From sequence record NZ_CP137560.1: a stretch of DNA of 64,000 nt. One strand, given 5' to 3'. The stretch comes from a plasmid. The notes beneath the pieces were generated by a model. It was given only the letters and a program-made list of their open reading frames with translations. It searched no databases and had not been told where the DNA came from. Positions 10,318 to 22,884 of the stretch are shown here, piece after piece. Each line of letters starts with the position of its first letter. Position 1 is the stretch's first letter. The position numbers and the translations under genes are program-made.

Positions 10318-10578
10318 TTACAGACCAAAGAACAAAGGCAAGCTCTGAGCTGCGGCAATGAGGAAGATACAAGCACCTACTATCAGCATGATGCTCTTCT
10401 TGAAATCTTGCTGATTGTTCGTAACGTACTGATAATCAACACTGATTGGAATGATAAAATGACGAAAGAAACAAATTAGGAACAACATAATTGAGAAACC
10501 CCAAAATGAAAGTATGGGAAAACAAAAATTAACATAGAAAACAACGGAATTTTTCCGATTTTGGCATTCATAAATCAA
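10318..10578 (-). CDS. traE: chimeric TraE (DUF4134) ORF: authentic traE 3' end (10318..~10403) fused in frame to a repeat-encoded surrogate N-terminus
   Basis: C-terminus SIMLIVGACIFLIAAAQSLPLFFGL matches the TraE/DUF4134 C-terminal consensus; N-terminal 58 aa are encoded by the 248-bp repeat and recur verbatim at 13234..13608. Confidence 0.5.
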   Translation of the reverse strand: MIYECQNRKNSVVFYVNFCFPILSFWGFSIMLFLICFFRHFIIPISVDYQYVTNNQQDFKKSIMLIVGACIFLIAAAQSLPLFFGL

Positions 10579-10651
10579 CTACAAAAGAAGAATCTTATAA
10601 GTAGGTACATCTGTTTTCATTTTAACAGAATATAGTGATATGCAAGATAAA
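10404..10651. repeat. ~248-bp direct repeat, copy A (left end of the insertion in traE); carries a traE-like 5' coding segment
   Basis: Near-identical (a handful of mismatches) to 13434..13682; identity starts right after a TCTTGA at 10398..10403 and ends at gataaag. Confidence 0.85.
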
Positions 10652-10822
10652 GAGGGAAAGAGTCACTGTAAATCATACAAAAATCAATGGGATTTCCAAT
10701 TAGACAAATTATTTTCGCTTTTTATAATGATTTTCGGATTTAACAAACGATATTTGGAGAAGAATGAGTATTTTTGCAACCGAAAACAAAAATAATATAC
10801 GCAATGGCTTACGGAAAATCGT

Positions 10823-11020
10823 TTGTCAAGATTCCAAAATAGAATCACTCCGTCTTGGATAAAAGATATGGGGGAAAACGAGATTTTTGTGTTTGCCAGT
10901 AATGTCAACGGTTATCATGGAGGTGGACCTCATGTGAATTTTGAAACACTGAAGCCAAATCCCAACAAACCTGGAAAGATGATGGTTGATCAAAATTATC
11001 ATGTTTTCATAACCGAATAA
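10823..11020 (+). CDS. hypothetical small protein
   Basis: First ORF of a same-strand run of short AT-rich ORFs between the repeats. Confidence 0.25.
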   Translation: MSRFQNRITPSWIKDMGENEIFVFASNVNGYHGGGPHVNFETLKPNPNKPGKMMVDQNYHVFITE

Positions 11021-11024
11021 TAGA

Positions 11025-11285
11025 ATGAAAAAAGTCACATTAAATGTTCCGAATTATTCCCCTGATACCGGAGTGGCACTCAATTGGGAAGGTAATTTCA
11101 CAATTAAGGTCTCCGATATAAATGGGAGCGTCTCAATTGAGGCTAATACCGAGGGATTAGTTTCTTTAGCAAATCACTTGCTAAATTTATCCCAATCATC
11201 GGTTCCTATAGGAACTCATCTTCATCTTGATGAGTACAACTCTCTTGAAGAAGGATCTTTAGATTTAATAATCGAAAAGATTTGA
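11025..11285 (+). CDS. hypothetical small protein (immunity-protein-like size)
   Basis: 86 aa, 4-bp spacing from the upstream ORF. Confidence 0.3.
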   Translation: MKKVTLNVPNYSPDTGVALNWEGNFTIKVSDINGSVSIEANTEGLVSLANHLLNLSQSSVPIGTHLHLDEYNSLEEGSLDLIIEKI

Positions 11286-11348
11286 TTCCAATAAGTCTGT
11301 TTATGGGTCTGACAATACGATCCATAAACAAATCTAATAGATTAACAG

Positions 11349-11699
11349 ATGATTGAAGATATGTTCTTTTGCGTTCTTTCAATTGTAGTGGGAGGCTATT
11401 TAGTGTCTCAAAAATTAAGAGCTATTTATAATAGACTCCCCCTTTCTCTAAAAGATAAGATTTCTTTTGGGGAAGGACTCATCCTAATTATATCTGGGTT
11501 CATTGCATTATATGTGAAATCGGCTATACCAATTAATGCTTTGCTTTTTGGGTGTTTCCTACTTCCGAAAATGTATCAACAAGAAAAGTATTGGAATGCT
11601 CGTCGTTTTACAACCGCATACATAATGCATTGTAGCGGTTGGATTTTAAGTATAGGGCTTATTATCTATGGTATTCTCCAATTATTTCAGCCTATATAA
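11349..11699 (+). CDS. hypothetical small membrane protein
   Basis: 116 aa with 3-4 predicted TM helices. Confidence 0.35.
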   Translation: MIEDMFFCVLSIVVGGYLVSQKLRAIYNRLPLSLKDKISFGEGLILIISGFIALYVKSAIPINALLFGCFLLPKMYQQEKYWNARRFTTAYIMHCSGWILSIGLIIYGILQLFQPI

Positions 11700-11740
11700 A
11701 TTGTAAGAACATAGATTAGTTCAACAATAAAACAAATTCA

Positions 11741-12118
11741 GTGAGGCTATGTTTAAAAAAAATTGAAAATCGAATTGTTATCACACCGCCTTCAGGCATG
11801 ACTGTTGAGCAATTTGATGAGATGGTTATTAAAACAGGTAATAGCTTTGGAAATAATCCCAATATTACATACTGTTTAGAGCCATTCGAACAAACACAAG
11901 GTAATTGTAATTCAAGTTCAAGTACGTTGCTTTATAAAGCGGGGGTTCCTTTAAGTAGGATAAAGGATTTGAGGAAGCAAATATCAGGTTTTGTTTGGGG
12001 ATTTGGTGATATTAAACCGTGGACAGTAGAGGAACAGTCAAAAGCTGTTCAGAGGCAGAGGGAATTCGACCAACTCCGTAATGAAATGATGAACACAATC
12101 ATCCTTAACAAATATTAA
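11741..12118 (+). CDS. hypothetical protein
   Basis: 125 aa; stop overlaps start of next ORF (taaATG). Confidence 0.3.
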   Translation: MRLCLKKIENRIVITPPSGMTVEQFDEMVIKTGNSFGNNPNITYCLEPFEQTQGNCNSSSSTLLYKAGVPLSRIKDLRKQISGFVWGFGDIKPWTVEEQSKAVQRQREFDQLRNEMMNTIILNKY

Positions 12119-12595
12119 ATGAGAAAATTGAGTTTTAAAATGGTCATAAGAGCATATTTAATATGTGCTCTTATGACATCAATATTAGGAATTATATCAT
12201 GCAGTGTTCATGACATAATAAATTGGTTTCCAATCGTATTACTTTATGCTTGGATAATATTGTCTCCAATATCTATTTTAGCATTGATAACTGTATATTT
12301 ATTGGGAGTTCAAAGAGATTGGATTTGTAAGATACCGTTAATTTGCTTATGCGCATTTATAGTATATTTTATAAACCTAAACTCATCAGAATCTTATTTG
12401 ATTAATTTTTTTGCAACCCAAACCGTACCATATGACCTTCTATATTACAATAATGGAATAGAGATAAGGGTCAATGACACTATTTTTTCTATTTTCACAT
12501 GGGTATTATCGTATTTTATATTAGTATTGCTTATTGTTATATCTACAATTATGTATAGATTTTTTAAAAAGCATAGCAAAATAAAATTATTCTAA
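12119..12595 (+). CDS. hypothetical polytopic membrane protein
   Basis: 158 aa, at least four hydrophobic helices. Confidence 0.35.
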   Translation: MRKLSFKMVIRAYLICALMTSILGIISCSVHDIINWFPIVLLYAWIILSPISILALITVYLLGVQRDWICKIPLICLCAFIVYFINLNSSESYLINFFATQTVPYDLLYYNNGIEIRVNDTIFSIFTWVLSYFILVLLIVISTIMYRFFKKHSKIKLF

Positions 12596-12639
12596 AATAA
12601 AGTGTTCTCATTAGTGATGATACTAAATCATTCTGTACA

Positions 12640-13434
12640 ATGCTCACCATCCAGCACAGCGGCCCAGACGGTGAGATTACCACCACCTTCGAGTACGACG
12701 GCATACAGCGCCTTGTTCGTGTCACCGACATGGAGGGCAATGTAACGACCTCTACTTACGACATGGGTGACCGCCGTACTGAGGTGAACCATCCTGCAAG
12801 CGGCATCACAAGTTTCACTTATGATGCGCTCGGCAATGTGCAGACTAAGCAGACTGCCAACCTTGCCAAGGAAGGAAAGTTCATTACTTACGATTACGAC
12901 TATCAGCGTCTGACGGGTATCAACTACCCAGACCATCCGGAGAACAACGTGAAGTATTACTATGGTGGTCGCAACGCCTCTCAGAACCGTATCGGTAGAT
13001 TGATGCTCCGCGAGGACGGAACAGGTGCCATTGAGTATTTCTATGGCAAGATTGGCGAGGTGACGAAGACCCGCCGCACGATGATTGTGCCTAACCAGGC
13101 GATAGCAACCTACGTGACGCAATGGACTTACGACAGCCACAACCGTCTGTTGGAGATGATTTATCCTGATGAGGAGAAAATCACTTACTCTTACAATCTC
13201 GGTGGTCAGCTTGAAAAGGTCCATGGCTACAAGTCATACGGCTATGACTATGTGAGCAAGATTGGCTATGACAAGTTCGAGCAGCGCAGCTACCTGAAGT
13301 ATTGCAACGGCGCGGAGACATTCTACACCTTCGACAACCGCCGCCGTCTCAGCAATCTCGCGGTCAACAGCGGCAACACGTCCATCATGGACAATGACTA
13401 TACGTTTGACGCGGTGAGCAATGTCCTCTCTTGA
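12640..13434 (+). pseudogene. RHS/YD-repeat protein fragment (internal repeat region only; no N-terminus, no C-terminal tip)
   Basis: Repeated YD motifs (FEYDGIQRL, STYDMGDRR, FTYDALGNV, ITYDYDYQRL, WTYDSHNRL, YTFDNRRRL); abrupt GC-rich block in AT-rich surroundings; terminated by stop inside the TCTTGA junction with repeat B. Confidence 0.7.
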
Positions 13435-13682
13435 ATCTTGCTGATTGTTCGTAACGTACTGATAATCAACACTGATTGGAATGATAAAATGACGAAAGAA
13501 ACAAATTAGGAACAACATAATTGAGAAAACCCCCAAAAAAAGTATGGGAAAACAAAAATTAACATGGAAAACAACGAAATTTTTCCGATTTTGGCATTCA
13601 TAAATCAACTACAAAAGAAGAATCTTATAAGTAGGCACATCTGTTTTCATTTTAACAGAATATAGTGATATGCAAGATAAAG
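13434..13682. repeat. ~248-bp direct repeat, copy B (left end of the integrase-bearing element)
   Basis: Near-identical to 10404..10651; preceded by TCTTGA (13429..13434). Confidence 0.85.
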
Positions 13683-13818
13683 GTAACTATTCAGTTCACC
13701 ACTACACAGAATGATAAGATTGCTTAATAAATACGAAATAGTATAAACTTGTTTAATAAAAATAACAACATGTTTGTTTTTGGACTATATTTACAACAAA
13801 TTTTAAAATTTATCAATT

Positions 13819-14178
13819 ATGTATATGGCTAATACTGCTACGGATACGTTGTCAACGGAAACCATGAATCCTCCAAAAGGTTCTTATGTCAATATGGTTG
13901 GTCAAGCGACAGGGAAAAGAGTAAGTGGAACTATCTCCAATGTTTCATATGATGTTCTTAATGCAAGTAAGAAAGTGTTGCTTCAAGATGTTTATCTTGC
14001 GACATATACTTCAAAAAGCGGTGATAGTGGGGGTATTGTATATGCTCTACGTTCAGCACACAATCAACGTCTAACTGTAGGTATAAATATAGGTTCTGCA
14101 AAAATTAACCGTACTACTTATGGCATGTGTGTAAAAGCATCGAATATAAATAGAATTTTTGGACTTACAAGATACTAA
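13819..14178 (+). CDS. orphan C-terminal half of a trypsin/chymotrypsin-fold serine protease domain (possible toxin-tip fragment)
   Basis: KSGDSGGIVY (GDSGG serine nucleophile motif) followed by GINIGSA, but no upstream His/Asp barrel; only 119 aa. Confidence 0.4.
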   Translation: MYMANTATDTLSTETMNPPKGSYVNMVGQATGKRVSGTISNVSYDVLNASKKVLLQDVYLATYTSKSGDSGGIVYALRSAHNQRLTVGINIGSAKINRTTYGMCVKASNINRIFGLTRY

Positions 14179-14187
14179 AGGGCTGTC

Positions 14188-14697
14188 ATGAATTTCTTAT
14201 TTAAGACATTTTGCATTATGGTCATATTCACGATGTTCGTGGATATGACCGCTCTAAGTAATAACATAACGAATAGAGATGGTTTATGGCGTGTTGATTC
14301 AGACTCCGTCACAATTACCACAAGCTATAGTGAGAAACAGCCAGAAAAATTAAATGTATGCATTTATAATCACAGCAATTCGACGATATATATAGGGCGA
14401 ACTTATGGATTGTTGATGCAAGTAGATGGGGAATGGAAATACATTGCCAAAGGTAGAAATCAAAAGTGCATAACTATATGGCCAGCGTCAAAACGTAACT
14501 TTCAAGTCAGTCTATGCGCTAAGAAAATAAAAAGCTCCTCTGGATGGGCATATAGAACAGATTCACTTTACAAAGTAAGATTTGACATGTATGACAGCGA
14601 TGGCGTTTTTATTGACAAAATGGACTCTGATTTCAAAGTTTCTGGTAATATTGTTTGGCATCTGACTGACGGATTAGTGATTATACATTTAGATTGA
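14188..14697 (+). CDS. secreted/membrane-anchored hypothetical protein (candidate immunity partner)
   Basis: N-terminal hydrophobic signal/anchor MNFLFKTFCIMVIFTMFVDMTALS; 10-bp spacing from the upstream ORF. Confidence 0.4.
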   Translation: MNFLFKTFCIMVIFTMFVDMTALSNNITNRDGLWRVDSDSVTITTSYSEKQPEKLNVCIYNHSNSTIYIGRTYGLLMQVDGEWKYIAKGRNQKCITIWPASKRNFQVSLCAKKIKSSSGWAYRTDSLYKVRFDMYDSDGVFIDKMDSDFKVSGNIVWHLTDGLVIIHLD

Positions 14698-14706
14698 ATA
14701 TTCCAA

Positions 14707-15111
14707 ATGCGACATCTCAATTCTTCAATATACGTAGATTGGTTGGATCCATCAATGCCCGCTCGTACATGTGGAAGAACAGCAGAAAATATAAAAGAGA
14801 AAATAAAAAAATATGATAAGTTTATACTTGTTGCTACAGAAGGTGCTATTGCGTCAAAATGGTGCAATTGGGAATTAGGCTTTGGTGATGCTCAAAAGTA
14901 TGCTTACGGTAAAATAGCCTTATTTCCTATCCGTTATGACGAAAAGGATTGGTCAGAAAGTGAATACTTAGAACTATATCCTGTTATAGGATATATTGAT
15001 AGTTGTCAATATTCGGATGAGTTTAATCAATCCCTTTTTACAGGTTATTATGTTTTTTGTCATTATGGCACGAAGAAGGCAATAAAATTGGTTGATTGGT
15101 TATCGAGATAA
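14707..15111 (+). CDS. TIR-like domain protein (stand-alone, 134 aa)
   Basis: KFILVATEGAIASKWCNWEL closely resembles the TIR alphaC-region motif (cf. [20 protein letters not shown] in TLR TIR domains); size matches a single TIR domain. Confidence 0.4.
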   Translation: MRHLNSSIYVDWLDPSMPARTCGRTAENIKEKIKKYDKFILVATEGAIASKWCNWELGFGDAQKYAYGKIALFPIRYDEKDWSESEYLELYPVIGYIDSCQYSDEFNQSLFTGYYVFCHYGTKKAIKLVDWLSR

Positions 15112-15169
15112 TAATAGAAATCGCCTAACTTTAAGTGCAAACTTAATGTTAGGCAGTAACTCGTCTATC

Positions 15170-15772
15170 TCATATATAGTTCTGTGCAATTATCATTCCA
15201 ACACCTCCTGCAACAACAAAGATACCAATCGTGAAGAAAAAACAAAAGAACCATTGTGCATAGTGACCGAGATAGCAACCATCATATTCCTTGTAGCGTT
15301 CACGGACTTTCTTCCGTTCATCGGCAAACATGGAATTGACCTCACGGATATGCATCTGCATCTGTGCGGTCATCCATTGGCGTTCTTTGGCAAACAGTTC
15401 TTGGATTTTCTGCCAGTCAGCATCATTGACATTTACAGACACCTTTAATTTAGTGGAAGCATTCTCCAAGACCTTGTCTATGTGCTGATTGATGGTATCT
15501 ACCTTTTTGCCGATGGTAGTCACAGCACCACCCAATTGAACTTCCGAACGCTGATACTGCTGAATGGCAGACTCCAGTTCAAGTGTGGCATTGATGAAGG
15601 TGTCGGTTGCCTTATCAATGTCCTTACTCAACTGCTTCAACTCAGGAACACGGTTTACAAGTCCGTCTTCGGCTTGCTGTTCCTCGACCTCGTTTTCGAC
15701 ATCATTCATCATGTTGTCGAAGTCGGATCTTTCTTCTGTGTCTATGTTTATCTTGCTTTTTCTGATTGCCAT
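15170..15772 (-). CDS. hypothetical coiled-coil protein with C-terminal TM anchor, downstream of relaxase
   Basis: 200 aa, acidic coiled-coil N-terminus, hydrophobic C-terminal ~35 aa; 12-bp gap after relaxase. Confidence 0.4.
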   Translation of the reverse strand: MAIRKSKINIDTEERSDFDNMMNDVENEVEEQQAEDGLVNRVPELKQLSKDIDKATDTFINATLELESAIQQYQRSEVQLGGAVTTIGKKVDTINQHIDKVLENASTKLKVSVNVNDADWQKIQELFAKERQWMTAQMQMHIREVNSMFADERKKVRERYKEYDGCYLGHYAQWFFCFFFTIGIFVVAGGVGMIIAQNYI

Positions 15773-15784
15773 ATTGTTATTGAT

Positions 15785-17017
15785 TTATCGGTGGAAACTT
15801 CTACTGCGTGGTTTAGGCTTGCACATGGAATGAGCCATCTGTGCGCAACGGTGGGCAAACTTCCAGTCATCTTCATCGTCTTTCTTTCCCCAACCAGATT
15901 CAGGAGAAGAACCGCCACCGCCACATGACTCAGACATGGAAGTGGCTGCATCAATGTACCCTGCAAACAACAGCATTGCTACATGAGCGACATTCTCCGT
16001 TGTCGCTATATCATTATCCTCTGGAATCTGAGCCTCATTAGTAAAGACATCTTTGACAGAGTTCGGAATCCACACCTTCTTGACTCCATCGCCAATGTTA
16101 ATTTGGAATGCTGTTTTTGAAGGTTGAACTTGTGCCTTTGGTTGTGATGCTGTTGAAGTCTGAGCGACAGGACGAACTGGGCGAGGCGTTGAAGCAACGG
16201 ATGGTGAAACAGGCTTTTCCTTGACCTGTGTAGGTTGTGGGTGCAGTTTCTTCCATGTGTCTTCAATCTTTGACACCATGTACTTTCTGCCAATCTCAGA
16301 AGCCTTGAACACGGAAGCGTTCTTGCCGACTGTATAGCCGACAAGTTTCCGCTGCTTGTCGTAACGAGGTTTAACCTCATAGCCTTTCATGCGCAACAGA
16401 TTGAAATATCTGTCAATGTTGAACTGCTGCATATCTTTGAGGATATGTTCGCAATCCTCCGCAAGTTCAGCCTTTCGCATATTCCGAATCTCCTGCGGTT
16501 GTTCCCATCCATGGCGCTTATTGATGATTTCCGCAGCCTTCATTGCCCGAAGGTGAATATCGTGTACATCATTGGTCTTACCCTCCATATCCACACGACA
16601 ACAATCAATGTGAAGGTGCAGCATTCCAGACTTGGAATCAGAGTGCAGTCCGCCCACATTCATAGAATTGGTGAAGTTGGTCTTTATTTCATTGGAGAAA
16701 CCGTTGGGCGAAAGTCCAACAGAATCCAAAACTCCCAATGCTTCGTCTTGGAGGTTTGCCCAATCTGCCATCGTGAAGTTTGCAGACTCTTCCTTTGATG
16801 GGGAAAGTACAAAAGTGGTCATGAACCTTTCCAACTTTCTGCCAACCGTCCTTTCCGCCTGATGATACTGGCAATGATGCTTCATCATGTACCAGATGGC
16901 GGTAGGGTCAAGACCATCGGGCATGTTGTTCACCTTGACCGTCTTTGCCTTCTCCTTTTCCAATGCGTACCTTACGGAATTGCCTCCATACGATACGACC
17001 TTTGCGAGCATAATCAT
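15785..17017 (-). CDS. mobilisation relaxase (MobA/VirD2-type relaxase domain, Bacteroides MobB-like)
   Basis: N-terminal MIMLAKVV.YGGNSVRYALEKEK motif (relaxase motif I with Tyr), HLHID His-cluster motif, Pro/Ser-rich linker. Confidence 0.8.
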   Translation of the reverse strand: MIMLAKVVSYGGNSVRYALEKEKAKTVKVNNMPDGLDPTAIWYMMKHHCQYHQAERTVGRKLERFMTTFVLSPSKEESANFTMADWANLQDEALGVLDSVGLSPNGFSNEIKTNFTNSMNVGGLHSDSKSGMLHLHIDCCRVDMEGKTNDVHDIHLRAMKAAEIINKRHGWEQPQEIRNMRKAELAEDCEHILKDMQQFNIDRYFNLLRMKGYEVKPRYDKQRKLVGYTVGKNASVFKASEIGRKYMVSKIEDTWKKLHPQPTQVKEKPVSPSVASTPRPVRPVAQTSTASQPKAQVQPSKTAFQINIGDGVKKVWIPNSVKDVFTNEAQIPEDNDIATTENVAHVAMLLFAGYIDAATSMSESCGGGGSSPESGWGKKDDEDDWKFAHRCAQMAHSMCKPKPRSRSFHR

Positions 17018-17424
17018 GATTGTTCCTTTGATTTTGTCTGTACGTTTGTTGCGATATTCTCTTCAATGCTATACCAATGTTGGATAAGTCCTGCAACGGC
17101 ATCAATCCACCAACGCATGAACTTCTCATTCTTGAAGAACCGAGCCTTTTCCTCAGCCGTTTTCTTGGATAGCACGTTGCTGATTTTTATCAAATCCGTC
17201 CTTGCGATGGCGAGAGAGTTGAGAGCGTCCACCTCTTCCTTGGTGAGCCTCATGCGTGGACGGTGCTTTAAGCCAGTCTCAACGACATAGCGGCTCAGGC
17301 TTAACCCACACTCCTTGGCATGTGTCTGGAGACGTTTCAATTCCTCTTCCGTGCATCGGTAGGTATGGACTTCCGTAGGCGGTTTTCTTATGATGTTCTT
17401 CTTTCTCATTTGTTCTTGTCTCAA
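17014..17424 (-). CDS. MobC-family relaxosome accessory protein
   Basis: 136 aa; overlaps relaxase start by 4 bp; RHH-like ...CTEEELKRLQTHAKECGLSLSRYVVE... typical of small Bacteroides Mob proteins. Confidence 0.65.
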   Translation of the reverse strand: MRQEQMRKKNIIRKPPTEVHTYRCTEEELKRLQTHAKECGLSLSRYVVETGLKHRPRMRLTKEEVDALNSLAIARTDLIKISNVLSKKTAEEKARFFKNEKFMRWWIDAVAGLIQHWYSIEENIATNVQTKSKEQS

Positions 17425-17503
17425 ATTAAAATGGGATGATTACAAGCATCTTACAAAGGTGGTCACGACTGCGAGCCTGCGAGTAGTCCGAGAAACTTTT
17501 AGG

Positions 17504-17534
17504 AATACAGAAAGACGGACACGGCTTCTGTATT
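17504..17534. promoter_or_regulatory. candidate oriT hairpin: AATACAGAA-(13 nt)-TTCTGTATT inverted repeat in the mobC-upstream intergenic region
   Basis: Perfect 9-bp inverted repeat in the 270-bp gap upstream of mobC, where oriT is found in NBU-type elements. Confidence 0.3.
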
Positions 17535-17694
17535 ACAAAAGGATTTCTCGAAAAGTACCTATAAAATGACGGCACTTTTAACAGCCTCCGTCCCCAAGGC
17601 TGCTTAAACGTATAACAGTTGGGCGGTAGCCTATGGCGGTTAATCGTCCTTTGGGATGATTTTTATGTATAGTGGCTTATTTGCCTCTGTATGC

Positions 17695-18519
17695 CTATTG
17701 ATTGCCGTTATGGTATTCGTTAGGTTTGTAGCCATTGGCATTAGAACCGTTCGACTGTTGTGTTTGACCTCCAAACTGATGCTGTGGATATGTGTTGTGC
17801 TCTCCCTCATTCTGTTTGGCATCTGCTTCTTGCAGGGAAGAAGGATTGCCAACAGACTGTCTGGAGTAGTTTTGCTGTGGAGAAATTCCACCAGTAATAG
17901 CATCGGAAAGATTGCCATTAGTTCCGATCTTACCCACGCTTCCATTATCATTAGATGAAGCCGAATTTAGGGAAGAAGAAATATCTGCCGTAGAAGAATT
18001 GCCCTTTTTGTCTGTATCGGATATTCCATTGGAAAAATGCCCATCTTCCTTGTCCGACTTTGTATCAACCCCCGTTGTCGTAACAATTACTCTTACTTGT
18101 GGAACTTCCGTGTGGATGATTGCAGAGCCATCAGTATTGCGCTTCAATGAAAATCCGTTCTTGAAAAATCTTCCGTCCACATACCAACCAGAGAGGGAAT
18201 GCAGGGTAATGATGCGGTTGTCTCCAACTTTTTGTGAAGAGGAAATCCCCACAGCCTCCATAGCCTGTAAAAGTTTGGGTACGGTCTTGCGGTCTTTATC
18301 CCAGAGTTTGGCAAGTTGGGTATTGTCAACCATACATTGCCCACACAAGATTTCCACTTGTTGGGTCTTGCTGATAGGTACAAGTGTTGTTTCACGTTCG
18401 GCAAGAGAGGCAAGAGACATGAAGCATTCCATGCGGTCAATCTTGTACTTCTTGCAGCGAAGATACTCCATCTGTACATCGGACAGCGTGAAGTAGTAAT
18501 GTATCTTTTGTTTATCCAT
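17695..18519 (-). CDS. conserved mobile-element backbone protein (paralog of 552..1202)
   Basis: Motif LAKLWDKDRKTVPKLLQAMEAVGI shared with 552..1202; Ser/Gly/Asn/Gln-rich C-terminal tail. Confidence 0.5.
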   Translation of the reverse strand: MDKQKIHYYFTLSDVQMEYLRCKKYKIDRMECFMSLASLAERETTLVPISKTQQVEILCGQCMVDNTQLAKLWDKDRKTVPKLLQAMEAVGISSSQKVGDNRIITLHSLSGWYVDGRFFKNGFSLKRNTDGSAIIHTEVPQVRVIVTTTGVDTKSDKEDGHFSNGISDTDKKGNSSTADISSSLNSASSNDNGSVGKIGTNGNLSDAITGGISPQQNYSRQSVGNPSSLQEADAKQNEGEHNTYPQHQFGGQTQQSNGSNANGYKPNEYHNGNQ

Positions 18520-18583
18520 CTTCTGTAAATTTTGAATATTATAACCATAAATGGCAAGACTGTTTTTCTCAGTAAAGAGAAAA

Positions 18584-18901
18584 TCATCTGTGCCGTCCTC
18601 TCCTTGGGGAAATGTCCTCTGCTATAACATAGAGCTCGCCTTGCAACCTGTCATTAGAATGGCTGCTTAATCGTGAAATGCACTCAATGCAGACAGACTG
18701 GGCAAGAAGTTTTCTTCTTCCGACAGTTGCTTCATCATTGATGCCCTTGTTGGCTCCGCATTGTTCGGCAAGCTGATTGAAAGCATCACGCATCCGAAAG
18801 TAGCCGTTGCCAGTATTGATGTAGCTCACGGCAAGGTCAGCGACATTCGCCAACTTGCTTCTGTACTCCTCATGGGAAATATCGTCCTTCATCATCGCCA
18901 T
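18584..18901 (-). CDS. hypothetical protein, mobile-element backbone
   Basis: 105 aa; 2-bp gap from the HTH gene. Confidence 0.35.
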   Translation of the reverse strand: MAMMKDDISHEEYRSKLANVADLAVSYINTGNGYFRMRDAFNQLAEQCGANKGINDEATVGRRKLLAQSVCIECISRLSSHSNDRLQGELYVIAEDISPRRGRHR

Positions 18902-18903
18902 GT

Positions 18904-19221
18904 CTATTTACAAAGTTCACTCATGTGCTTGGTCGCTGCAGCCTTGGTCTCAGCCTCGGACATACTGCGGTTCTGGCGCATCCAGTTCAAAAGTTCGGAC
19001 TTCTCAAAGTAGATAATCTTGCCGTTGGGACGGAAGAACGGAAGTTCATGCTTGTGTGTCATCTTGTAGAGACTACTCTTTGATATACCCATGAATAAGG
19101 CTGCTTCCTCCAGTGTCAATACTTGCTTGGCATCACGGAGTAGGTTCTCCATTATCCCAATGCGGTGCTCATGTGACTCTACCTTCAAGAGAAGAGTCTC
19201 GGTGTCGATAGTTTTGTTCAT
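18904..19221 (-). CDS. helix-turn-helix DNA-binding protein, excisionase-like
   Basis: LTLEEAALFMGISKSSLYKMTHKHELPFFRPNGKIIYFEKSELLNWMRQ; paralog of 1626..1958. Confidence 0.6.
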   Translation of the reverse strand: MNKTIDTETLLLKVESHEHRIGIMENLLRDAKQVLTLEEAALFMGISKSSLYKMTHKHELPFFRPNGKIIYFEKSELLNWMRQNRSMSEAETKAAATKHMSELCK

Positions 19222-19360
19222 TATCCTGTAATTTATTGTTTGTAATTCGTTGTACTGCTTGTTTTGAAAGTGTAGTCCCCCAAGACAGAGAGAATTCCCT
19301 GCCCGAAAAATGGGGACTACAAAAGTGAAATTTACTGGTTGTTATCCTGAAAAGTTCCGT

Positions 19361-20677
19361 TTACTTGTTATCCTGTAAAAAAGTTATTCTGCGTGGATGG
19401 GTGTTGGTGGCTGCTGTCCGCTTTGTCCTCGGTATTTGCTTGTTCTCCTCACGCTGTTTGCGACCTCGAAAGGCTTTCTTCGTGTTGTCAACAGCCTTGA
19501 CCTTTTCATTCGTCAGCACATCTGCATAGATGGCGGTGGATTTGAGCGACTTGTGTCCCATCAGTTTCTTGGTAGTCTCAATGTTGCCGGTAACCGCCTG
19601 CACCAAAATTCCGAATGTATGTCGGGAACAGTGAAAAGAGATATTCTTCTCAATGCCCACCTTTTTGGCTATCCTTTTAAGGGCAGCATCCACATTAGCC
19701 TTAGCAGGAAGGTGGAACACAAAATCATCATCACCTTTGGGTGGCATCCATGACAAGGCGGTATTGCCGATTGGTACGGCATTGAGAGCCTTTGTTTTCT
19801 TTTGGACGATTACAAGCGTGTTCGTTTCCTTGTTTCTCTTGATGTCACTCCACCGCAGAGCCTTGATGTCGCTTATACGAAGTCCTGTCAGACAGGCGAA
19901 ACCGAAAGCCTTTTGTGTCTCTGCAACTCCTGGACTTCTCTCATCTGAAGCCATGAACCTTTTCAGTTCATCGGGAGTGAGATACTGCTTATGTGATGAC
20001 TTTGGCTTGGGAAAGATGTCAGACTTCTCCAACAGGTAGAAAGGGTTAGCCTTCAATTTACCGAACTTGACAGCCTTGTTGAATACCGCCACTGTGCGCT
20101 GTTGAACATTGTGAAGCGAGCCTTCACACAAAGGCTTGGCTTCAACTCGTACATACTTCTGTGGTACATAGTCGTTCTTCAGCCAAAGGAAGAAAGCCTT
20201 GAACCATTCCTTGTCGAACTTCCTCAGAGTGATGTGAGGTCTGCGCTTGTTGGCAAGGAACTCGCTCATTAGGTATTTCAAATACTTTGACTGGTCAACA
20301 ATAGCCTTGGAGTAGTCTGTATTGTCGCTCATCCAGTCGATGTAAGTCTGGATCCAGTCCATGACTTCGGGAGACTCGTCATTGGGGATTTCCTTCACAA
20401 TCATCAAGTGACCTACCTCTGGGATGGTCTCTGGATGAAGAATACGCTCTGCCCTTATCTGGTGAGCACGTTGCAATGTTTCTTCGTTTCTTGCTTTGGT
20501 CTCTGCATCAACCTCTGGCAACAAATAGAGAGAAAGAAATTCAAACTTGCGCTTGCCACCATCGTAGATGTCAAGATACAAGCTTATGTTGTCGTTGGCA
20601 AGTGCCTTTTGTCTGATAGTTATTGTCATGTCTATATATATATTCGTTGTCAATGATTTATGTGAACATACCGTCAA
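19361..20677 (-). CDS. tyrosine site-specific integrase with N-terminal arm-DNA-binding domain
   Basis: N-terminal ISLYLDIYDGGKRKFEFLSLYL arm-binding-type domain; C-terminal HCSRHTF...LMGH...STAIYADV (R-H-R-Y catalytic signature). Confidence 0.85.
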   Translation of the reverse strand: MTVCSHKSLTTNIYIDMTITIRQKALANDNISLYLDIYDGGKRKFEFLSLYLLPEVDAETKARNEETLQRAHQIRAERILHPETIPEVGHLMIVKEIPNDESPEVMDWIQTYIDWMSDNTDYSKAIVDQSKYLKYLMSEFLANKRRPHITLRKFDKEWFKAFFLWLKNDYVPQKYVRVEAKPLCEGSLHNVQQRTVAVFNKAVKFGKLKANPFYLLEKSDIFPKPKSSHKQYLTPDELKRFMASDERSPGVAETQKAFGFACLTGLRISDIKALRWSDIKRNKETNTLVIVQKKTKALNAVPIGNTALSWMPPKGDDDFVFHLPAKANVDAALKRIAKKVGIEKNISFHCSRHTFGILVQAVTGNIETTKKLMGHKSLKSTAIYADVLTNEKVKAVDNTKKAFRGRKQREENKQIPRTKRTAATNTHPRRITFLQDNK

Positions 20678-21830
20678 TGAGGTTTATGGCTTCCTCCTTC
20701 TTCTTATCCACGATTTTAGCATAGATTTCCGTGGTCTGAATGTTGGAATGTCCCATCAGCTTGCTTGTGGTAAAAAGGTCTGCACCGAGAGTGAGCATCA
20801 TCGTTCCGAACGTGTGCCGTGAGCTATGGAATGAGATATGCTTCTCTATCCCTGCCGCTTCCGCCCATTTGCGGAGAGCCCTGCCTATAACGGTCTGTGT
20901 GGTCGGTATGTCAAAGAAAGGAATATCATTTCCTCTTGGCTTTGGCAACCACCGCTTAGCCTCTTCCGAGAGAGGTATTATAACTGGCTTCTCCGTCTTT
21001 TGCATTTCCATGTCTATGTATTCGCCCTTTCCGTCAGCGGTCTTGAAGATGTGCATCGGAGCAAGATGGTACATGTCACTTAATCGCAATCCAGTAAAAC
21101 AGGCGAAGATGAAAGCCTCCTTGACCTCTGGGCGGTAACTGTCCGTAGCCATGAGGGTACGAAGTTCCTCAATGGTCAGATACTCTTTCTTGCCGTCCTT
21201 GGGCTGAATGCGCTCACGTGCATCAAGTTCTTTCATAGGGTTGTTGCGAATAATGCCTTGTCGCACAGCGTTATTGAGAGCAGTGGAGAACATTCCGAGG
21301 TATCGGCTTGCCGTATTCTCGCTGATTGGTCTTGGCTCGCCATACTTGATATGGGAGTTTGGGAAGTTACGCAAGAACTTCACATATCCACGGCAGAACT
21401 CCGCATTGACCTCTTCAAGCGAAATGAAGCCTTTGTTGGTCTCGTCAAGATACTTCTCCACGGTGTGCAGCATTTCCACACGGCAATGGAGCGTTGACTT
21501 CTTGATGCCGACACCACCTTCACAATACTTCTTTATCCATGTGGTAAGAAGCATCGAGCCTTGTTTTACTGTCTCCCAGTCCTGTATGCCGTGACCATGC
21601 AGGGCTTTGATGCGCTCTGCCTTGATGCGTTCTGCAACTGCCATAGTCTGCTTGTTCTGTTCCTTGCAAATGGGATTGATTTCGGGAACGAGGTAGAGTT
21701 TGAGGTATTCATACTTCCTCACTCCCTTGTAGTAGATGTCAAGATAGATACTCTTGTTGCCATCTGCGAGCGACTTCAACCGAATTTTAATCGGTTCTTT
21801 CAGCTTTACTTGTTTCTTTGGTCTTGCCAT
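20658..21830 (-). CDS. tyrosine site-specific integrase (second, tandem copy)
   Basis: SIYLDIYYKGVRKYEYLKLYL N-terminal domain; HSSRHTF...LMGHSNIQTTEIYAKI catalytic motifs; 20-bp overlap with the downstream integrase. Confidence 0.85.
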   Translation of the reverse strand: MARPKKQVKLKEPIKIRLKSLADGNKSIYLDIYYKGVRKYEYLKLYLVPEINPICKEQNKQTMAVAERIKAERIKALHGHGIQDWETVKQGSMLLTTWIKKYCEGGVGIKKSTLHCRVEMLHTVEKYLDETNKGFISLEEVNAEFCRGYVKFLRNFPNSHIKYGEPRPISENTASRYLGMFSTALNNAVRQGIIRNNPMKELDARERIQPKDGKKEYLTIEELRTLMATDSYRPEVKEAFIFACFTGLRLSDMYHLAPMHIFKTADGKGEYIDMEMQKTEKPVIIPLSEEAKRWLPKPRGNDIPFFDIPTTQTVIGRALRKWAEAAGIEKHISFHSSRHTFGTMMLTLGADLFTTSKLMGHSNIQTTEIYAKIVDKKKEEAINLIDGMFT

Positions 21831-21978
21831 GATGTATGAAGTGTTATTTTGTTTTTGTATTCTGCTACATTGGAGGGTCTTTCTCCCTCTTGTTGAAAGT
21901 TCATGTCAGATATGGTTTCCTATGCTGACATTTGCTTTTCTTTCTCTTCCCTTACTTCGGAAAACTGATGTAAAGATA

Positions 21979-22024
21979 AGAAAACAAACCGAGAAACGAG
22001 AAACAAAACGGAAACAAGAAACAG
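21979..22024. repeat. cluster of 4-5 direct (A/G)GAAAC(A/G) repeats; candidate integrase arm-type sites at the int-proximal element end
   Basis: aagaaaacaaaccGAGAAACGAGAAACaaaacgGAAACaaGAAACag between the integrase start and the traE junction. Confidence 0.4.
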
Positions 22025-22028
22025 TCTT

Positions 22029-22469
22029 TTATGTCTTTTTAAGAGTGAGTTTAGCAAACATCGGAAAATTCAAATTGTCGCTTAAAGCATTGATACTTAG
22101 CGCATTTACTTTCATTTGCTTTCTTGTCTTTTCAAACGCATTTTGTAGGACTAAGATATTCTTGACATCCTGCTCCTCGTTGTTCATCTTCACATACACG
22201 GAGATAGCACCGATGATAGCTACGATACCTGCAATGGCATAGCAGAGGTTGGTGACCACAGGCACATACTTCTTCAAGCTATCTGTAGAGGTCTCGATGG
22301 CTGCAAGACCGGCATCCACATTCTGTGCGAAAGTGGAAATAGACACCACCAAGAGCATCATGGTCAACATACCCATGCGTGGGTTAGAAACGAAAGACTT
22401 GGCTTTCTTCACAGTGGCTGTGGCGCAACGTTTTGCGCCGCAAGCCAAATTACTGATTACTTTGTTCAT
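22029..22469 (-). pseudogene. traE: traE 5' fragment (DUF4134 signal peptide and first TM, through ...VYVKMNNEEQDVK) whose ORF then runs into element DNA
   Basis: MLTMMLLVVSISTFAQ signal peptide and AIETSTDSLKKYVPVVTNLCYAIAGIVAIIGAISVYVKMNNEEQDVK are TraE-like; the following 43 aa (NILVLQNAFEK...) are encoded by the inserted element. Confidence 0.6.
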
Positions 22470-22530: not shown

Positions 22531-22884
22531 TTACCACAAATGATCGGTTACACCATAATGGAAACCGAAGAATGATGGGAAGACCACCGTGGAAACACAT
22601 AGGAAAATCAAACTTCCTATCAGAATAATCACGCTCTTGGTGAATCCTTCCTCTCCAGTTTGCATCTTAATGTAGATGTTGGTAGCACTATAGAGCGACA
22701 GCAAGGTGGCAATAGCGTACATGAGCTGAGCCACGTAGGAGCACATGGTCAGCACATAGGTGACCATATCATATAGCCTTCCGGTATTGCCGCTATAATC
22801 TGTTGTACCACAGTTGGCCATCGCAACCTGAGAGCATAGAAGCATGAGCAGGGCTAATGCCAATAGTCTAAAGTTATCCTTCAT
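22531..22884 (-). CDS. TraE-like DUF4134 family small membrane protein (complete paralog)
   Basis: Signal peptide plus ...YIKMQTGEEGFTKSVIILIGSLIFLCVSTVVFPSFFGF matching the DUF4134 C-terminal pattern. Confidence 0.55.
   Translation of the reverse strand: MKDNFRLLALALLMLLCSQVAMANCGTTDYSGNTGRLYDMVTYVLTMCSYVAQLMYAIATLLSLYSATNIYIKMQTGEEGFTKSVIILIGSLIFLCVSTVVFPSFFGFHYGVTDHLW

What the first reader, a model, noticed from the sequence alone, without database searches (positions are those of the whole stretch)
13819..15111. Cargo of the integrase-bearing element: orphan serine-protease-fold half, a secreted partner and a TIR-like protein
Directly inside the element end sit three same-strand genes with 9-10-bp spacing:
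- a 119-aa ORF with a KSGDSGGIVY catalytic-serine motif but no His/Asp barrel, i.e. only the C-terminal half of a trypsin fold;
- a 169-aa protein with an N-terminal anchor;
- a 134-aa TIR-like protein (KFILVATEGAIASKWCNWEL).
This could be an orphan toxin fragment with immunity protein, or a small TIR-based defence cassette. Either way it is unannotated accessory cargo on a mobilisable element.
Basis: partly seen in the sequence, partly recalled or inferred. Interest (0 to 1): 0.7.

Follow-up and report, generated by a model that had tools for sequence, protein, structure and literature searches.

The report
Dead protease, kept partner, TIR stump
The three small genes are not one cassette: two are remnants of larger genes (a secreted serine protease and a TIR defence protein), and only the middle gene is intact, the protease's conserved partner and probably its inhibitor.

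Summary
In detail: the three ORFs, their 9-nt spacers and both motifs are present, and the trio recurs on hundreds of gut-metagenome contigs.

**Protease remnant (119 aa).** It is an in-frame deletion allele of a 401-aa lipoprotein pre-pro-protease of the alpha-lytic/streptogrisin type. An 846-bp deletion between two copies of AATTATGTATA removed the signal peptide, pro-region and the His/Asp barrel. The native upstream region, start codon and stop remain.

**TIR remnant (134 aa).** It is the last ~70% of a 190-aa ThsB-like gene. Strand A and helix A are missing, and its ATG lies in junction filler. Its two partner genes are absent.

**Intact gene (169 aa).** This is a Big_14 Ig-like secreted protein. 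Homologues follow this protease family directly in Bacteroidota, Firmicutes and an actinomycete. It is under purifying selection and survives several independent protease-loss alleles.

**Interpretation.** I infer, without direct test, that it inhibits or gives immunity against a surface- or vesicle-borne protease, and that this strain kept the shield and lost the weapon.

The TIR cassette idea is not supported. Everything is annotated "hypothetical", and I found no description in the literature searched.

The parts
10401..22157 (.). Integrative mobilizable element (about 11.7 kb) that carries the finding. It is inserted in a DUF4134 traE gene of a conjugative element. Cargo is on the + strand at the left. 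The 200-aa gene, relaxase, NikA-like gene, HTH_17 gene and two tyrosine integrases are on the - strand at the right. Boundaries are approximate to a few bases.
   Evidence: Joining the traE N-part (22029-22469, - strand) to the C-part (10318-10400, - strand) restores an end-to-end PF13572 match (2-93/93, 107.7 bits, against 2-70/93 for the interrupted ORF). The same element sits in other chromosomal sites in L008, L011, L013, L015 and L016.
10404..10652 (+). Copy 1 of the 249-bp direct repeat (left-end sequence of the element).
   Evidence: 97% identical to copy 2. About 86% identical to the intergenic region at the start of the cargo slot in related elements L001-L006.
12640..13434 (+). RHS/YD-repeat gene fragment, cut at both ends and abutting repeat copy 2. 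It belongs to a 3,030-bp block (10653-13433 plus one repeat) that is present, absent or internally deleted in other copies of the element.
   Evidence: Pfam RHS_repeat 1.2e-15. Block absent in L007, L008, L009, L013 and L015. Internally deleted in L069 and L076.
13434..13682 (+). Copy 2 of the 249-bp direct repeat, immediately upstream of the protease operon.
13683..13818 (+). Native 5' flank of the protease-partner operon, retained unchanged. Promoter not identified.
   Evidence: Collinear with the region upstream of the intact 401-aa gene in L069-L071, L074-L076 and L088. Promoter scans gave no more hits than chance.
13815..13825 (+). Single copy of AATTATGTATA, the junction of the 846-bp in-frame deletion. 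It contains the native start codon (13819-13821).
   Evidence: The intact allele L075 has this 11-mer twice, at 1782-1792 and 2628-2638. The window has it once.
13819..14178 (+). 119-aa ORF: a deletion allele (282 codons lost) of a 401-aa lipoprotein pre-pro alpha-lytic/streptogrisin-like serine protease. Met1-Tyr2 is fused to residues 285-401, the C-terminal barrel with GDSGG. The signal peptide, lipobox, pro-region, catalytic His and catalytic Asp are gone.
   Evidence: 96.7% identical to residues 282-401 of the intact protein.
14188..14697 (+). 169-aa intact gene: a secreted Big_14 (Ig-like) partner of the protease. Proposed inhibitor or immunity protein.
   Evidence: A homologous gene lies directly downstream of the protease across phyla. 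19 of 21 family members match PF20251. dN/dS is 0.22-0.32 in the comparisons with enough substitutions. The gene is retained in every protease-loss allele that kept a partner.
14702..14711 (+). Junction between the protease-partner module and the truncated TIR gene. These 10 nt are of unassigned origin and contain the ATG (14707) that opens the 134-aa ORF.
   Evidence: Module homology (L065, L073, L087) ends at 14701-14710. Homology to the intact TIR gene starts at 14712, which is codon 58.
14707..15111 (+). 134-aa ORF: 5'-truncated remnant of a 190-aa ThsB-like TIR gene. Strand A and helix A are missing. The WCNWEL glutamate (E57) is kept.
   Evidence: PADLOC PDLC00423 6e-47, but only profile positions 59-189 of 190. 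P0012 (190 aa) is 92% identical. Aligned to the solved TIR protein 8btn.

Best explanation
The three ORFs are the scarred cargo slot of a Segatella/Prevotella integrative mobilizable element, not a working three-gene cassette.

**Step 1 (shown).** The slot once held a TIR-type defence cluster: ThsB-like, PDC-M50A, ThsB-like. A two-gene operon replaced most of it and left only the 3' 70% of the last TIR gene. That remnant is the 134-aa ORF, which opens at a fortuitous ATG and lacks strand A and helix A.

**Step 2 (shown).** The incoming operon encodes two proteins. One is a 401-aa lipoprotein pre-pro serine protease of the alpha-lytic/streptogrisin (S1E) type. The other, 9 nt downstream, is a ~170-aa secreted Big_14 Ig-like protein.

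**Step 3 (shown).** In this window an 846-bp in-frame deletion between two copies of AATTATGTATA removed codons 3-284: the signal peptide, lipobox, pro-region and the barrel carrying His and Asp. This left the 119-aa ORF. It cannot be exported, and it cannot be a catalytic-triad protease. It still uses the operon's native 5' region and start codon, and it still terminates 9 nt before the partner gene.

**Step 4 (inferred).** The partner therefore remains expressed, and it is the only functional gene of the trio.

**Step 5 (inferred).** The partner is a dedicated inhibitor or immunity protein. The protease carries an acidic stretch after its lipid-attachment Cys, like the lipoprotein export signal that sends Bacteroides lipoproteins to the cell surface and outer-membrane vesicles. 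The partner lacks such a stretch and should stay in the periplasm or on the inner face of the outer membrane. There it would neutralise protease that matures early or arrives from neighbouring cells. On this reading the window's strain has lost the weapon and kept the shield.
For: **Fragment nature of the 119-aa ORF.**
- A profile of the small-ORF family hits the last 116 residues of ~395-400-aa proteins (P0138, 6.9e-56).
- The alignment shows a conserved triad (TAGH, DAAF, GDSGG) and a conserved lipobox Cys.
- The full-length profile hits solved S1E proteases (2oua 1.7e-8; SGPE and SGPB about 2e-3) and the alpha-lytic protease pro-region (2pro, 0.012).

**Exact deletion.**
- Intact alleles sit in the same slot: L069-71, L074-76, L079, L086, L088.
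- The 11-nt repeat lies 846 bp apart in L075 and occurs once in the window.

**Allele frequencies.** The intact 401-aa protein is on at least 1000 contigs. Three listed deletion-allele sequences are on 217, 430 and 94 contigs. The partner-fusion allele is on 193 contigs.

**Partner conservation.**
- A 156-184-aa ORF directly follows the protease in most of 32 genome loci, from Bacteroidota, Firmicutes and one actinomycete.
- These ORFs are homologous to one another, and 19 of 21 match Big_14.
- dN/dS is 0.22-0.32 in the four comparisons with enough substitutions; a near-identical pair with 10 substitutions gave 0.57.

**Partner retained after independent protease losses.**
- Window allele: codons 3-284 deleted.
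- L017: residues ~51-282 deleted in frame.
- L029: a different internal deletion.
- L084, L085: whole protease deleted, with the protease start codon fused to the partner.
- L073: an HTH ORF fused to the last ~20 protease codons.
- L064, L125: short stubs only.
- L107, L132: no protease homology in the 2.9 kb upstream.

**Partner duplication.** A second copy is present in L038 and L046.

**Predicted topology.** 17 of 18 full-length proteases have a lipobox Cys followed by a mean of 2.2 D/E residues in positions +2 to +7. Partners average 0.46 and often have K/R there. The lipoprotein export signal CS(D/E)2 drives surface exposure and vesicle packing in Bacteroides (PMC6222051).

**Precedents.**
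- Alpha-lytic protease is bacteriolytic, and Lysobacter vesicles carry the lytic protease L5/AlpB (PMC12250508, PMC8415630).
- B. fragilis C10 protease genes have been reported on mobile genetic elements, in a paper that also discusses staphostatin-like genes (PMC2873492; listing only, the pairing is my recollection).

**TIR remnant.**
Against: - No direct evidence shows that the partner binds or inhibits the protease.
- Both structure predictions were too poor to use (pLDDT 38 and 50), and the fold search gave only generic beta-sandwiches.
- Big_14 has no described function, and the window's own protein scores below Pfam's cut-off (23.1 against 27 bits).
- In environmental Bacteroidota the pair is chromosomal with no sign of mobility or antagonism. 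The protease may therefore serve nutrition or surface processing.
- Partner retention could be hitch-hiking. All copies of this element are 96-99% identical, so within-lineage selection cannot be measured: only 1-5 variable sites per ORF.
- The in-frame character of several deletions is partly ascertainment bias from protein-based searches.
- No promoter or terminator was detected above chance.
- One fragment (L058) has no partner in the 490 nt available downstream.
Confidence: 0.55

Rival explanations
1. The Big_14 partner is not an inhibitor but an accessory of the protease, such as an anchor, maturation factor, substrate-binding adaptor or substrate. Its survival in protease-less alleles would then be neutral hitch-hiking after recent microhomology deletions.
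For: - The tight operon linkage across phyla fits any obligate partner.
- The element copies are 96-99% identical, so there has been little time for a useless gene to decay.
- The pair is chromosomal in Sphingobacterium and Chryseobacterium, with no mobile or antagonism context.
- No structural evidence for an inhibitor is available.
Against: - At least six independent protease-loss alleles keep the partner intact. Two of them place it directly behind a start codon or keep the frame up to its start.
- One partner-only allele is on 193 contigs.
- Extra partner copies occur without extra proteases.
- The predicted localisations of the two proteins differ. That suits a shield better than a co-factor, which would need to be where the enzyme acts.
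- Alpha-lytic-type proteases already carry their own pro-region foldase (established knowledge of the family).
Confidence: 0.25
2. The trio, or at least its third gene, is a working small TIR-based anti-phage cassette.
For: - Strong ThsB profile match (6e-47).
- The conserved WCxxEL glutamate is present.
- The ORF is open and conserved on about 195 contigs.
Against: - Only profile positions 59-189 of 190 are matched.
- DNA homology to the intact 190-aa gene starts at its codon 58, five bases after the ATG. The VFLSH strand A and helix A are therefore missing.
- In intact relatives the gene is third in a ThsB-like/PDC-M50A/ThsB-like cluster. Neither of the other two genes is in the window.
- No ThsA-type effector was seen among the ORFs examined.
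- The other two ORFs belong to an unrelated protease operon.
- Frameshifted and further-shortened variants circulate (P0014, P0016).
Confidence: 0.03
3. The 119-aa ORF is an orphan C-terminal toxin module of a polymorphic (Rhs-type) toxin, linked to the RHS fragment 400 bp upstream, and the 169-aa protein is its immunity protein.
For: - An RHS fragment lies at 12640-13434, and an Imm32 gene is in the same cargo region.
- A fragment followed by a small downstream gene resembles orphan toxin-immunity modules.
Against: - All full-length relatives are 350-445-aa lipoprotein pre-pro-proteases, and none is fused to Rhs.
- The intact parent (401 aa) sits at the same place, with its own start codon 136 nt after the repeat.
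- The RHS fragment is separated from the ORF by the 249-bp repeat, and is absent from many copies that still carry the trio.
Confidence: 0.03
4. The 119-aa product has gained a function of its own, for example a cytoplasmic half-barrel that binds the partner or regulates it.
For: The frame, the native start codon and the native stop are all kept, and the allele is common.
Against: - It has no signal peptide, whereas the partner is secreted, so the two would not meet.
- Alleles that delete the protease completely are also common (193 contigs).
- A half chymotrypsin barrel is unlikely to fold alone, and AlphaFold gave pLDDT 38.
- An in-frame outcome has a one-in-three chance anyway.
Confidence: 0.05

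Closest known systems
Alpha-lytic protease / streptogrisin family (MEROPS S1E): Lysobacter alpha-lytic protease, Nocardiopsis NAPase (2OUA), S. griseus SGPB and SGPE
   Same: The parent protein has the pre-pro layout, a TAGH...DAAF...GDSGG triad in the S1 order, significant profile matches to solved S1E enzymes, and a weak match to the alpha-lytic protease pro-region. Alpha-lytic-type enzymes of Lysobacter are bacteriolytic, and one (L5/AlpB) travels in outer-membrane vesicles.
   Different: The parent is a lipoprotein with an acidic, export-signal-like stretch after the Cys, rather than a soluble secreted enzyme. It belongs to Bacteroidota gut lineages carried on integrative mobilizable elements and Rep3 plasmids, and it always has a Big_14 gene downstream. 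No Pfam or NCBIfam model reaches threshold. The window's copy has lost 282 of 401 codons and is not an enzyme.
Secreted protease plus cognate inhibitor operons: serralysin/AprA with Inh/AprI, staphopain with staphostatin, B. fragilis Bfp C10 proteases with staphostatin-like Bfi on mobile elements (PMC2873492)
   Same: A small beta-rich protein is encoded next to an exported protease, with predicted retention inside the envelope. In Bacteroides such pairs also ride on mobile elements (the AprI/Inh and staphostatin details are from my own knowledge).
   Different: The protease class is different (S1E serine), and so is the partner fold family (Big_14 Ig-like, not a lipocalin-like barrel). Inhibition is not demonstrated here. 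The recurrent loss of the protease with retention of the partner is not, to my knowledge, a described feature of those systems.
Orphan immunity genes and acquired interbacterial defence (AID, rAID-1) clusters of gut Bacteroidales (bioRxiv 10.1101/471110)
   Same: Low-GC cargo on a mobile element. It holds an apparently protective gene without its toxin, toxin-gene remnants, an Imm32 gene and an RHS fragment nearby.
   Different: There is no co-directional XerD-like recombinase at the 5' end, which was a search criterion for rAID-1. The integrases are on the opposite strand at the far end. The partner is not homologous to any known T6SS immunity family, and the lost 'toxin' is a lipoprotein protease rather than a T6SS effector.
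Thoeris ThsB TIR proteins
   Same: The 134-aa ORF matches ThsB profiles strongly and keeps the conserved Glu.
   Different: It is truncated at the N-terminus, no ThsA is present, and its companion genes are missing. It is a pseudogene remnant.

Membership tests
S1E alpha-lytic/streptogrisin serine proteases (for the 119-aa ORF and its parent) | Significant sequence or profile similarity to characterised members | tested here: met
   The full-length family profile (A5) against PDB gives 2oua 1.7e-8, 1hpg 1.9e-3 and SGPB 2.4e-3. The window ORF alone gives only weak hits: NCBIfam Rv1815 serine proteinase 0.0058, and no PDB protease hit.
S1E alpha-lytic/streptogrisin serine proteases (for the 119-aa ORF and its parent) | Complete His-Asp-Ser catalytic triad on two beta-barrels | tested here: not met
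   The parent (L075, 401 aa) and 18 relatives have TAGH, DAAF and GDSGG. The window ORF keeps only the Ser barrel. His and Asp lie in the deleted 282 codons.
S1E alpha-lytic/streptogrisin serine proteases (for the 119-aa ORF and its parent) | N-terminal pro-region that acts as foldase | tested here: inconclusive
   The family profile matches the alpha-lytic protease pro-region 2pro at E = 0.012. Pfam Pro_Al_protease scores 16.6 bits in P0141, below the 23.4 cut-off. The region is absent from the window ORF.
S1E alpha-lytic/streptogrisin serine proteases (for the 119-aa ORF and its parent) | Proteolytic or bacteriolytic activity | not testable with these tools
   Needs biochemistry on the intact 401-aa allele.
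Thoeris ThsB / TIR domain proteins (134-aa ORF) | TIR domain profile match | tested here: met
   Pfam TIR_2 29.1 bits (cut-off 28). PADLOC ThsB PDLC00423 6e-47.
Thoeris ThsB / TIR domain proteins (134-aa ORF) | Complete TIR fold, from strand A through helix E | tested here: not met
   Only profile positions 59-189 of 190 are matched. Homology to the intact gene starts at codon 58. The VFLSH strand A of P0012, which aligns to IFLSH of 8btn, is missing.
Thoeris ThsB / TIR domain proteins (134-aa ORF) | Conserved catalytic glutamate (WxxxE / WCxxEL motif) | tested here: met
   E57 in ...SKWCNWELG aligns with the WELG of 8btn and with E113 of P0012. That this Glu is the catalytic residue of NADase TIR domains is from my own knowledge.
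Thoeris ThsB / TIR domain proteins (134-aa ORF) | Adjacent effector (ThsA), or the companion genes of the intact cluster | tested here: not met
   tblastn with the 222-aa ThsB-like and 147-aa PDC-M50A proteins of the intact cluster finds nothing in the window. I saw no SIR2 or Macro gene among the ORFs listed between 9 and 20 kb.
Polymorphic (Rhs-type) toxin C-terminal domain with immunity gene | The domain occurs at the C-terminus of a large delivery protein (Rhs, CdiA, etc.) | tested here: not met
   Most hits longer than about 350 aa are 350-445-aa proteins ending in this domain, and none is Rhs-linked. Two longer proteins gave only short internal matches, and one was a DnaK chimera. The intact parent has its own start codon.
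Polymorphic (Rhs-type) toxin C-terminal domain with immunity gene | A small cognate gene immediately downstream | tested here: met
   The partner starts 1-70 nt after the protease stop in most loci. A protective function is untested.
rAID-1 / AID orphan-immunity clusters | [quoted passage not shown] | tested here: not met
   The cargo is on the + strand at 10.6-15.1 kb. Both integrases are on the - strand at 19.4-21.8 kb. Criteria read. The low GC (34-40%) criterion is met.
rAID-1 / AID orphan-immunity clusters | Homology to known immunity genes, and residence on a mobile element | tested here: inconclusive
   Mobile element: yes. An Imm32 gene is in the neighbouring block. The 169-aa partner has no match to a known immunity family.
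Pfam Big_14 (PF20251) Ig-like domain (169-aa protein) | Profile match above the gathering score | tested here: inconclusive
   The window protein scores 23.1 bits against a cut-off of 27. However, 19 of 21 homologous partners match at E <= 0.01, the best at 2.1e-30, so membership holds at family level.

The most novel reading that the evidence does not exclude
The alpha-lytic-type lipoproteases of Bacteroidota are surface- or vesicle-delivered weapons against neighbouring bacteria. Big_14 partner proteins would then be a new family of periplasmic protease-inhibitor immunity proteins. On this reading the Segatella copri complex carries a common weapon/shield polymorphism. Producer alleles (intact operon) and immune non-producer alleles coexist on the same mobile element. 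The non-producers arose repeatedly by microhomology deletions that keep the shield expressed. The window is one such immune non-producer.
Probability: 0.3. Interest if true: 0.7.

Novelty: new variant of a known kind. Interest (0 to 1): 0.5.

Why it matters
Little appears to be known about interbacterial antagonism in Prevotella/Segatella, one of the most abundant human gut lineages. My literature searches for such systems returned Bacteroides and Phocaeicola work, apart from one paper on a Listeria bacteriocin that targets P. copri.

If the inference is right, this locus points to an uncharacterised protease-based weapon and a new inhibitor family. It would also offer a natural allelic series, all on one mobile element and all common in human metagenomes:
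- intact operon;
- in-frame dead protease plus partner;
- partner alone.

That series makes producer/cheater dynamics directly testable.

If the inference is wrong, the result is still useful for annotation. Two of the three 'genes' are pseudogene remnants. The third belongs to a widespread two-gene operon that is currently annotated only as hypothetical.

Tried and rejected
- **Structure of the 119-aa ORF.** AlphaFold2 with a 5-sequence alignment gave pLDDT 37.9, which is unusable.
- **Structure of the 169-aa partner.** pLDDT was 49.6. A Foldseek search against PDB gave no hit below E = 0.01, only generic beta-sandwiches such as C2, FimH and p53.
- **PDB sequence searches.** The small-ORF profile and the partner profile gave only chance hits.
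- **Word-indexed protein search with the 119-aa ORF.** It found only relatives of 159 aa or less and missed the full-length family. The exhaustive representative search was needed.
- **First genome scan.** The 19-sequence alignment had no stretch conserved enough to search with. A 12-sequence alignment worked.
- **Selection within the element.** Only 1-5 variable sites per ORF across 11 copies, so there is no power.
- **Promoter and terminator scans.** Sigma-70-type hits were not above the shuffled expectation. There was no exact Bacteroides-type TAnnTTTG and no intrinsic terminator.
- **Read-through fusion of the 169-aa and 134-aa ORFs.** They are in the same frame, separated by TGA. I rejected a fusion because the partner's C-terminus (...GLVIIHLD) is the conserved family end, and TIR homology only starts at 14712.
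- **rAID-1 membership.** Rejected on architecture.
- **Literature searches.** Searches for Big_14/PF20251, for alpha-lytic-type proteases in Bacteroides or P. copri, and for protease-based antagonism in Bacteroidales found no description of this module.
Full report
**Observation**

The window has three + strand ORFs: 13819-14178 (119 aa), 14188-14697 (169 aa) and 14707-15111 (134 aa). They lie in a low-GC stretch (35-40%) between the transfer genes and the mobilisation/integrase genes of a Bacteroidales-type element. The identical 119-aa protein is recorded on 217 contigs. The same three-ORF arrangement recurs next to the same 200-aa gene and relaxase in many different chromosomal contexts.

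**The element**

A 249-bp direct repeat occurs at 10404-10652 and 13434-13682, with 97% identity. Its left boundary coincides with the left end of an integrative mobilizable element (IME). In L008, L011, L013, L015 and L016, unrelated chromosomal genes abut this point.

In the window the element splits a DUF4134 traE gene. Joining the N-part (22029-22469, - strand) to the C-part (10318-10400, - strand) restores an end-to-end PF13572 match of 107.7 bits. The interrupted ORF gives only 71.3 bits over profile positions 2-70 of 93. The IME therefore spans roughly 10.4-22.16 kb. It has two tandem tyrosine integrases, an HTH_17 protein, a NikA-like protein and a relaxase on the - strand, and cargo on the + strand.

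The two repeat copies bracket a 3,030-bp block. This block holds an Imm32 gene, small membrane proteins and an RHS fragment. It is absent or internally deleted in other copies of the element. The trio lies directly after repeat copy 2.

**The TIR ORF is a stump**

- PADLOC's ThsB profile PDLC00423 matches at 6e-47, but only over profile positions 59-189 of 190.
- The closest relatives are 190-aa proteins. P0012 is 92% identical over the whole 134 aa.
- DNA homology to the intact gene starts at window 14712, which corresponds to codon 58 of the gene in L001. That is five bases after the ATG at 14707.
- Homology to the protease-partner module ends at 14701-14710. The ATG therefore lies in about 10 nt of junction filler.
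- The lost segment contains VFLSH, which aligns with strand A (IFLSH) of the solved TIR protein 8btn.
- The conserved Glu of WCNWEL (E57) is kept.

In intact relatives the 190-aa gene is the third gene of a cluster: a ThsB-like 222-aa protein (PDLC00428, 1e-79), a 147-aa PDC-M50A protein, then the ThsB-like 190-aa protein. That cluster sits beside an HpaII-type restriction-modification system and is followed by the same 200-aa gene as in the window. Neither companion gene is in the window. The TIR ORF is thus a remnant of an earlier defence cargo, not part of a cassette with the other two ORFs.

**The 119-aa ORF is a deletion allele of a 401-aa protease**

The word-indexed search found only relatives of 159 aa or less. 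An exhaustive profile search then placed the 116 profile positions at the extreme C-terminus of ~395-400-aa proteins (P0138, 6.9e-56; 180 hits in all).

These proteins share four features:
- a lipoprotein signal with a conserved Cys;
- a pro-region;
- TAGH and DAAF motifs;
- the GDSGG motif.

Their profile hits solved S1E proteases: NAPase 2oua at 1.7e-8, and SGPE and SGPB at about 2e-3. It also hits the alpha-lytic protease pro-region, 2pro, at 0.012. No Pfam or NCBIfam model reaches its threshold.

A metagenome scan with the partner protein found the intact parent of this exact lineage in the same IME slot. It is present in L069-71, L074-76, L079, L086 and L088, with the repeat upstream and the TIR stump downstream.

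In L075 the gene is 401 codons long and begins MYKHLLFIMMIATCATLASCSNDDSEE. The 11-mer AATTATGTATA occurs at its start codon (1782-1792) and again 846 bp downstream (2628-2638). The window has a single copy, at 13815-13825. The 119-aa ORF is therefore Met1-Tyr2 fused in frame to residues 285-401.

The deletion removed the signal peptide, lipobox, pro-region and the barrel that carries His and Asp. It left the native 5' flank, start codon and stop codon in place. The product cannot be exported, and it cannot be a catalytic-triad protease.

The TIR truncation is older than this deletion, because intact-protease copies already have the stump downstream.

**The 169-aa gene is the conserved partner**

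- In most of 32 genome loci that encode this protease family, a 156-184-aa ORF starts within 1-70 nt of the protease stop. The loci come from Phocaeicola (a Rep3 plasmid), Segatella copri, Prevotella, Muribaculaceae, Sphingobacterium, Chryseobacterium, Kaistella, Cyclobacteriaceae, several Firmicutes and one actinomycete.
- These ORFs are homologous to one another by iterated HMM search.
- 19 of 21 match Pfam Big_14, the best at 2.1e-30. The window's own protein scores 23.1 bits, just under the cut-off of 27.
- dN/dS is 0.22-0.32 in the four comparisons with enough substitutions. A near-identical pair with only 10 substitutions gave 0.57.
- Second copies of the partner occur in L038 and L046.

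**Recurrent loss of the protease with retention of the partner**

Besides the window's allele, I found the following:
- L017: an in-frame deletion of residues ~51-282, on another IME, behind an XRE regulator gene.
- L029 and L030: a different internal deletion.
- L084 and L085: complete loss of the protease, with the protease start codon fused to the partner's N-terminus (MYKNFLFKTFC...).
- L073: an XRE ORF fused in frame to the last ~20 protease codons.
- L064 and L125: short protease stubs.
- L107 and L132: no protease homology within the 2.9 kb upstream. L118 also shows none, but only about 720 nt are available there.

The partner is intact in all of these. One further fragment, L058, has no partner within the 490 nt available downstream.

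Contig counts show that all alleles are common. The intact protein is on at least 1000 contigs. Three listed deletion-allele sequences are on 217, 430 and 94 contigs. The partner-fusion allele is on 193 contigs. NCBI names the proteins only 'hypothetical protein', from Segatella copri and Segatella hominis.

**Mechanism proposed**

What is shown: the anatomy, the deletion and the conservation of the gene pair.

What is inferred: the function of the partner.

- 17 of 18 full-length proteases have a lipobox Cys followed by a mean of 2.2 acidic residues in positions +2 to +7. Partners have a plain signal peptide or a lipobox with a mean of 0.46 acidic residues, and often have Lys or Arg there.
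- In Bacteroides, an acidic export signal after the Cys, CS(D/E)2, drives surface exposure and packing into outer-membrane vesicles (PMC6222051).
- Alpha-lytic protease is a bacteriolytic enzyme, and Lysobacter vesicles carry the lytic protease L5/AlpB (PMC12250508, PMC8415630). That L5/AlpB is itself an alpha-lytic protease homologue is from my own knowledge.
- Protease genes on mobile elements have a precedent in B. fragilis (PMC2873492). I saw only the listing; their pairing with staphostatin-like inhibitor genes is my recollection.

I therefore propose an outward-facing protease with an inward-facing inhibitor or immunity protein. The window's strain would be an immune non-producer, and its deletion would preserve expression of the shield. 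I put this functional reading at about one half. The anatomical reading is near certain.

**Limits**

- Both structure predictions failed, and the fold search was uninformative.
- No promoter was identified.
- Within-lineage variation is too low to measure selection.
- In environmental Bacteroidota the pair is chromosomal with no sign of antagonism.
- Hitch-hiking of a non-inhibitory accessory gene remains the main rival.

**Comparison and novelty**

- The parent enzyme resembles S1E proteases, and presumably works like them, but the window ORF fails the triad test.
- The TIR ORF fails the complete-fold and companion-gene tests for Thoeris.
- The locus fails the architecture criterion for rAID-1.
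- The fragment is not Rhs-derived.
- My searches found no description of the S1E-lipoprotein/Big_14 operon or of its allelic series.

I rate the finding a new variant of a known kind: an exported protease with a cognate protective partner, and orphan retention of the partner after the protease was lost. Interest is moderate.

Noticed in passing
window 10318-10400 and 22029-22469 (- strand): The integrative mobilizable element interrupts a DUF4134 (traE-like) gene of a conjugative element. The two halves joined in silico give a full-length PF13572 match. The element's left-end repeat encodes a peptide (YVTNNQQD) resembling the traE sequence at the insertion point (VKMNNEEQD), which suggests a target-like core site.
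   Followed up: partly
window 10404-13682: A 249-bp direct repeat (97% identical) brackets a 3,030-bp block. The block holds an Imm32 immunity gene (11025-11285), three small membrane or unknown proteins, and an RHS fragment (12640-13434) cut exactly at the repeat. The block is present, absent or internally deleted among otherwise near-identical element copies. This looks like recombination between tandem or nested elements.
   Followed up: partly
L001-L006, about 6900-8573 in L001-L004 (shifted in L005 and L006); relatives of the TIR stump: The intact cargo of the sister element is a three-gene cluster: ThsB-like TIR (222 aa), a PADLOC candidate PDC-M50A protein (147 aa), then ThsB-like TIR (190 aa). 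It sits next to an XRE gene, a Dcm/HpaII restriction-modification system, a NUDIX protein (PDC-S07) and a McrBC-like AAA_5 pair. This two-TIR cluster may itself be an undescribed Thoeris-like variant.
   Followed up: no
window 19361-20677 and 20658-21830 (- strand): Two tandem, overlapping tyrosine integrase genes, each with Arm-DNA-bind_5, SAM_5 and Phage_integrase domains, lie at the right end of the element.
   Followed up: no
L038:7099-7605 and 8128-8631; L046:7210-7713 and 7717-8211: The Big_14 partner gene is duplicated downstream of a single protease gene in a Sphingobacterium genome and a Cyclobacteriaceae genome.
   Followed up: partly
L073:2785-2991: An XRE-type HTH ORF is fused in frame to the last ~20 codons of the protease gene, directly before an intact partner gene. 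This is another independent protease-loss allele.
   Followed up: partly
P0140 (478 aa, from the representative search): About 360 N-terminal residues of a DnaK/HSP70 protein are fused to the C-terminal 116 residues of the protease family. It is probably an assembly chimera, but I did not check.
   Followed up: no
window 10823-11020: A 65-aa ORF at the start of the cargo has a weak match (E = 0.062) to the N-terminus of the A1S_2505 phage non-structural protein family. It is probably another gene fragment.
   Followed up: no
window 22531-22884 (- strand): A second, complete DUF4134 gene lies immediately beyond the interrupted one, so the conjugative element has two traE-like paralogues in tandem.
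   Followed up: no
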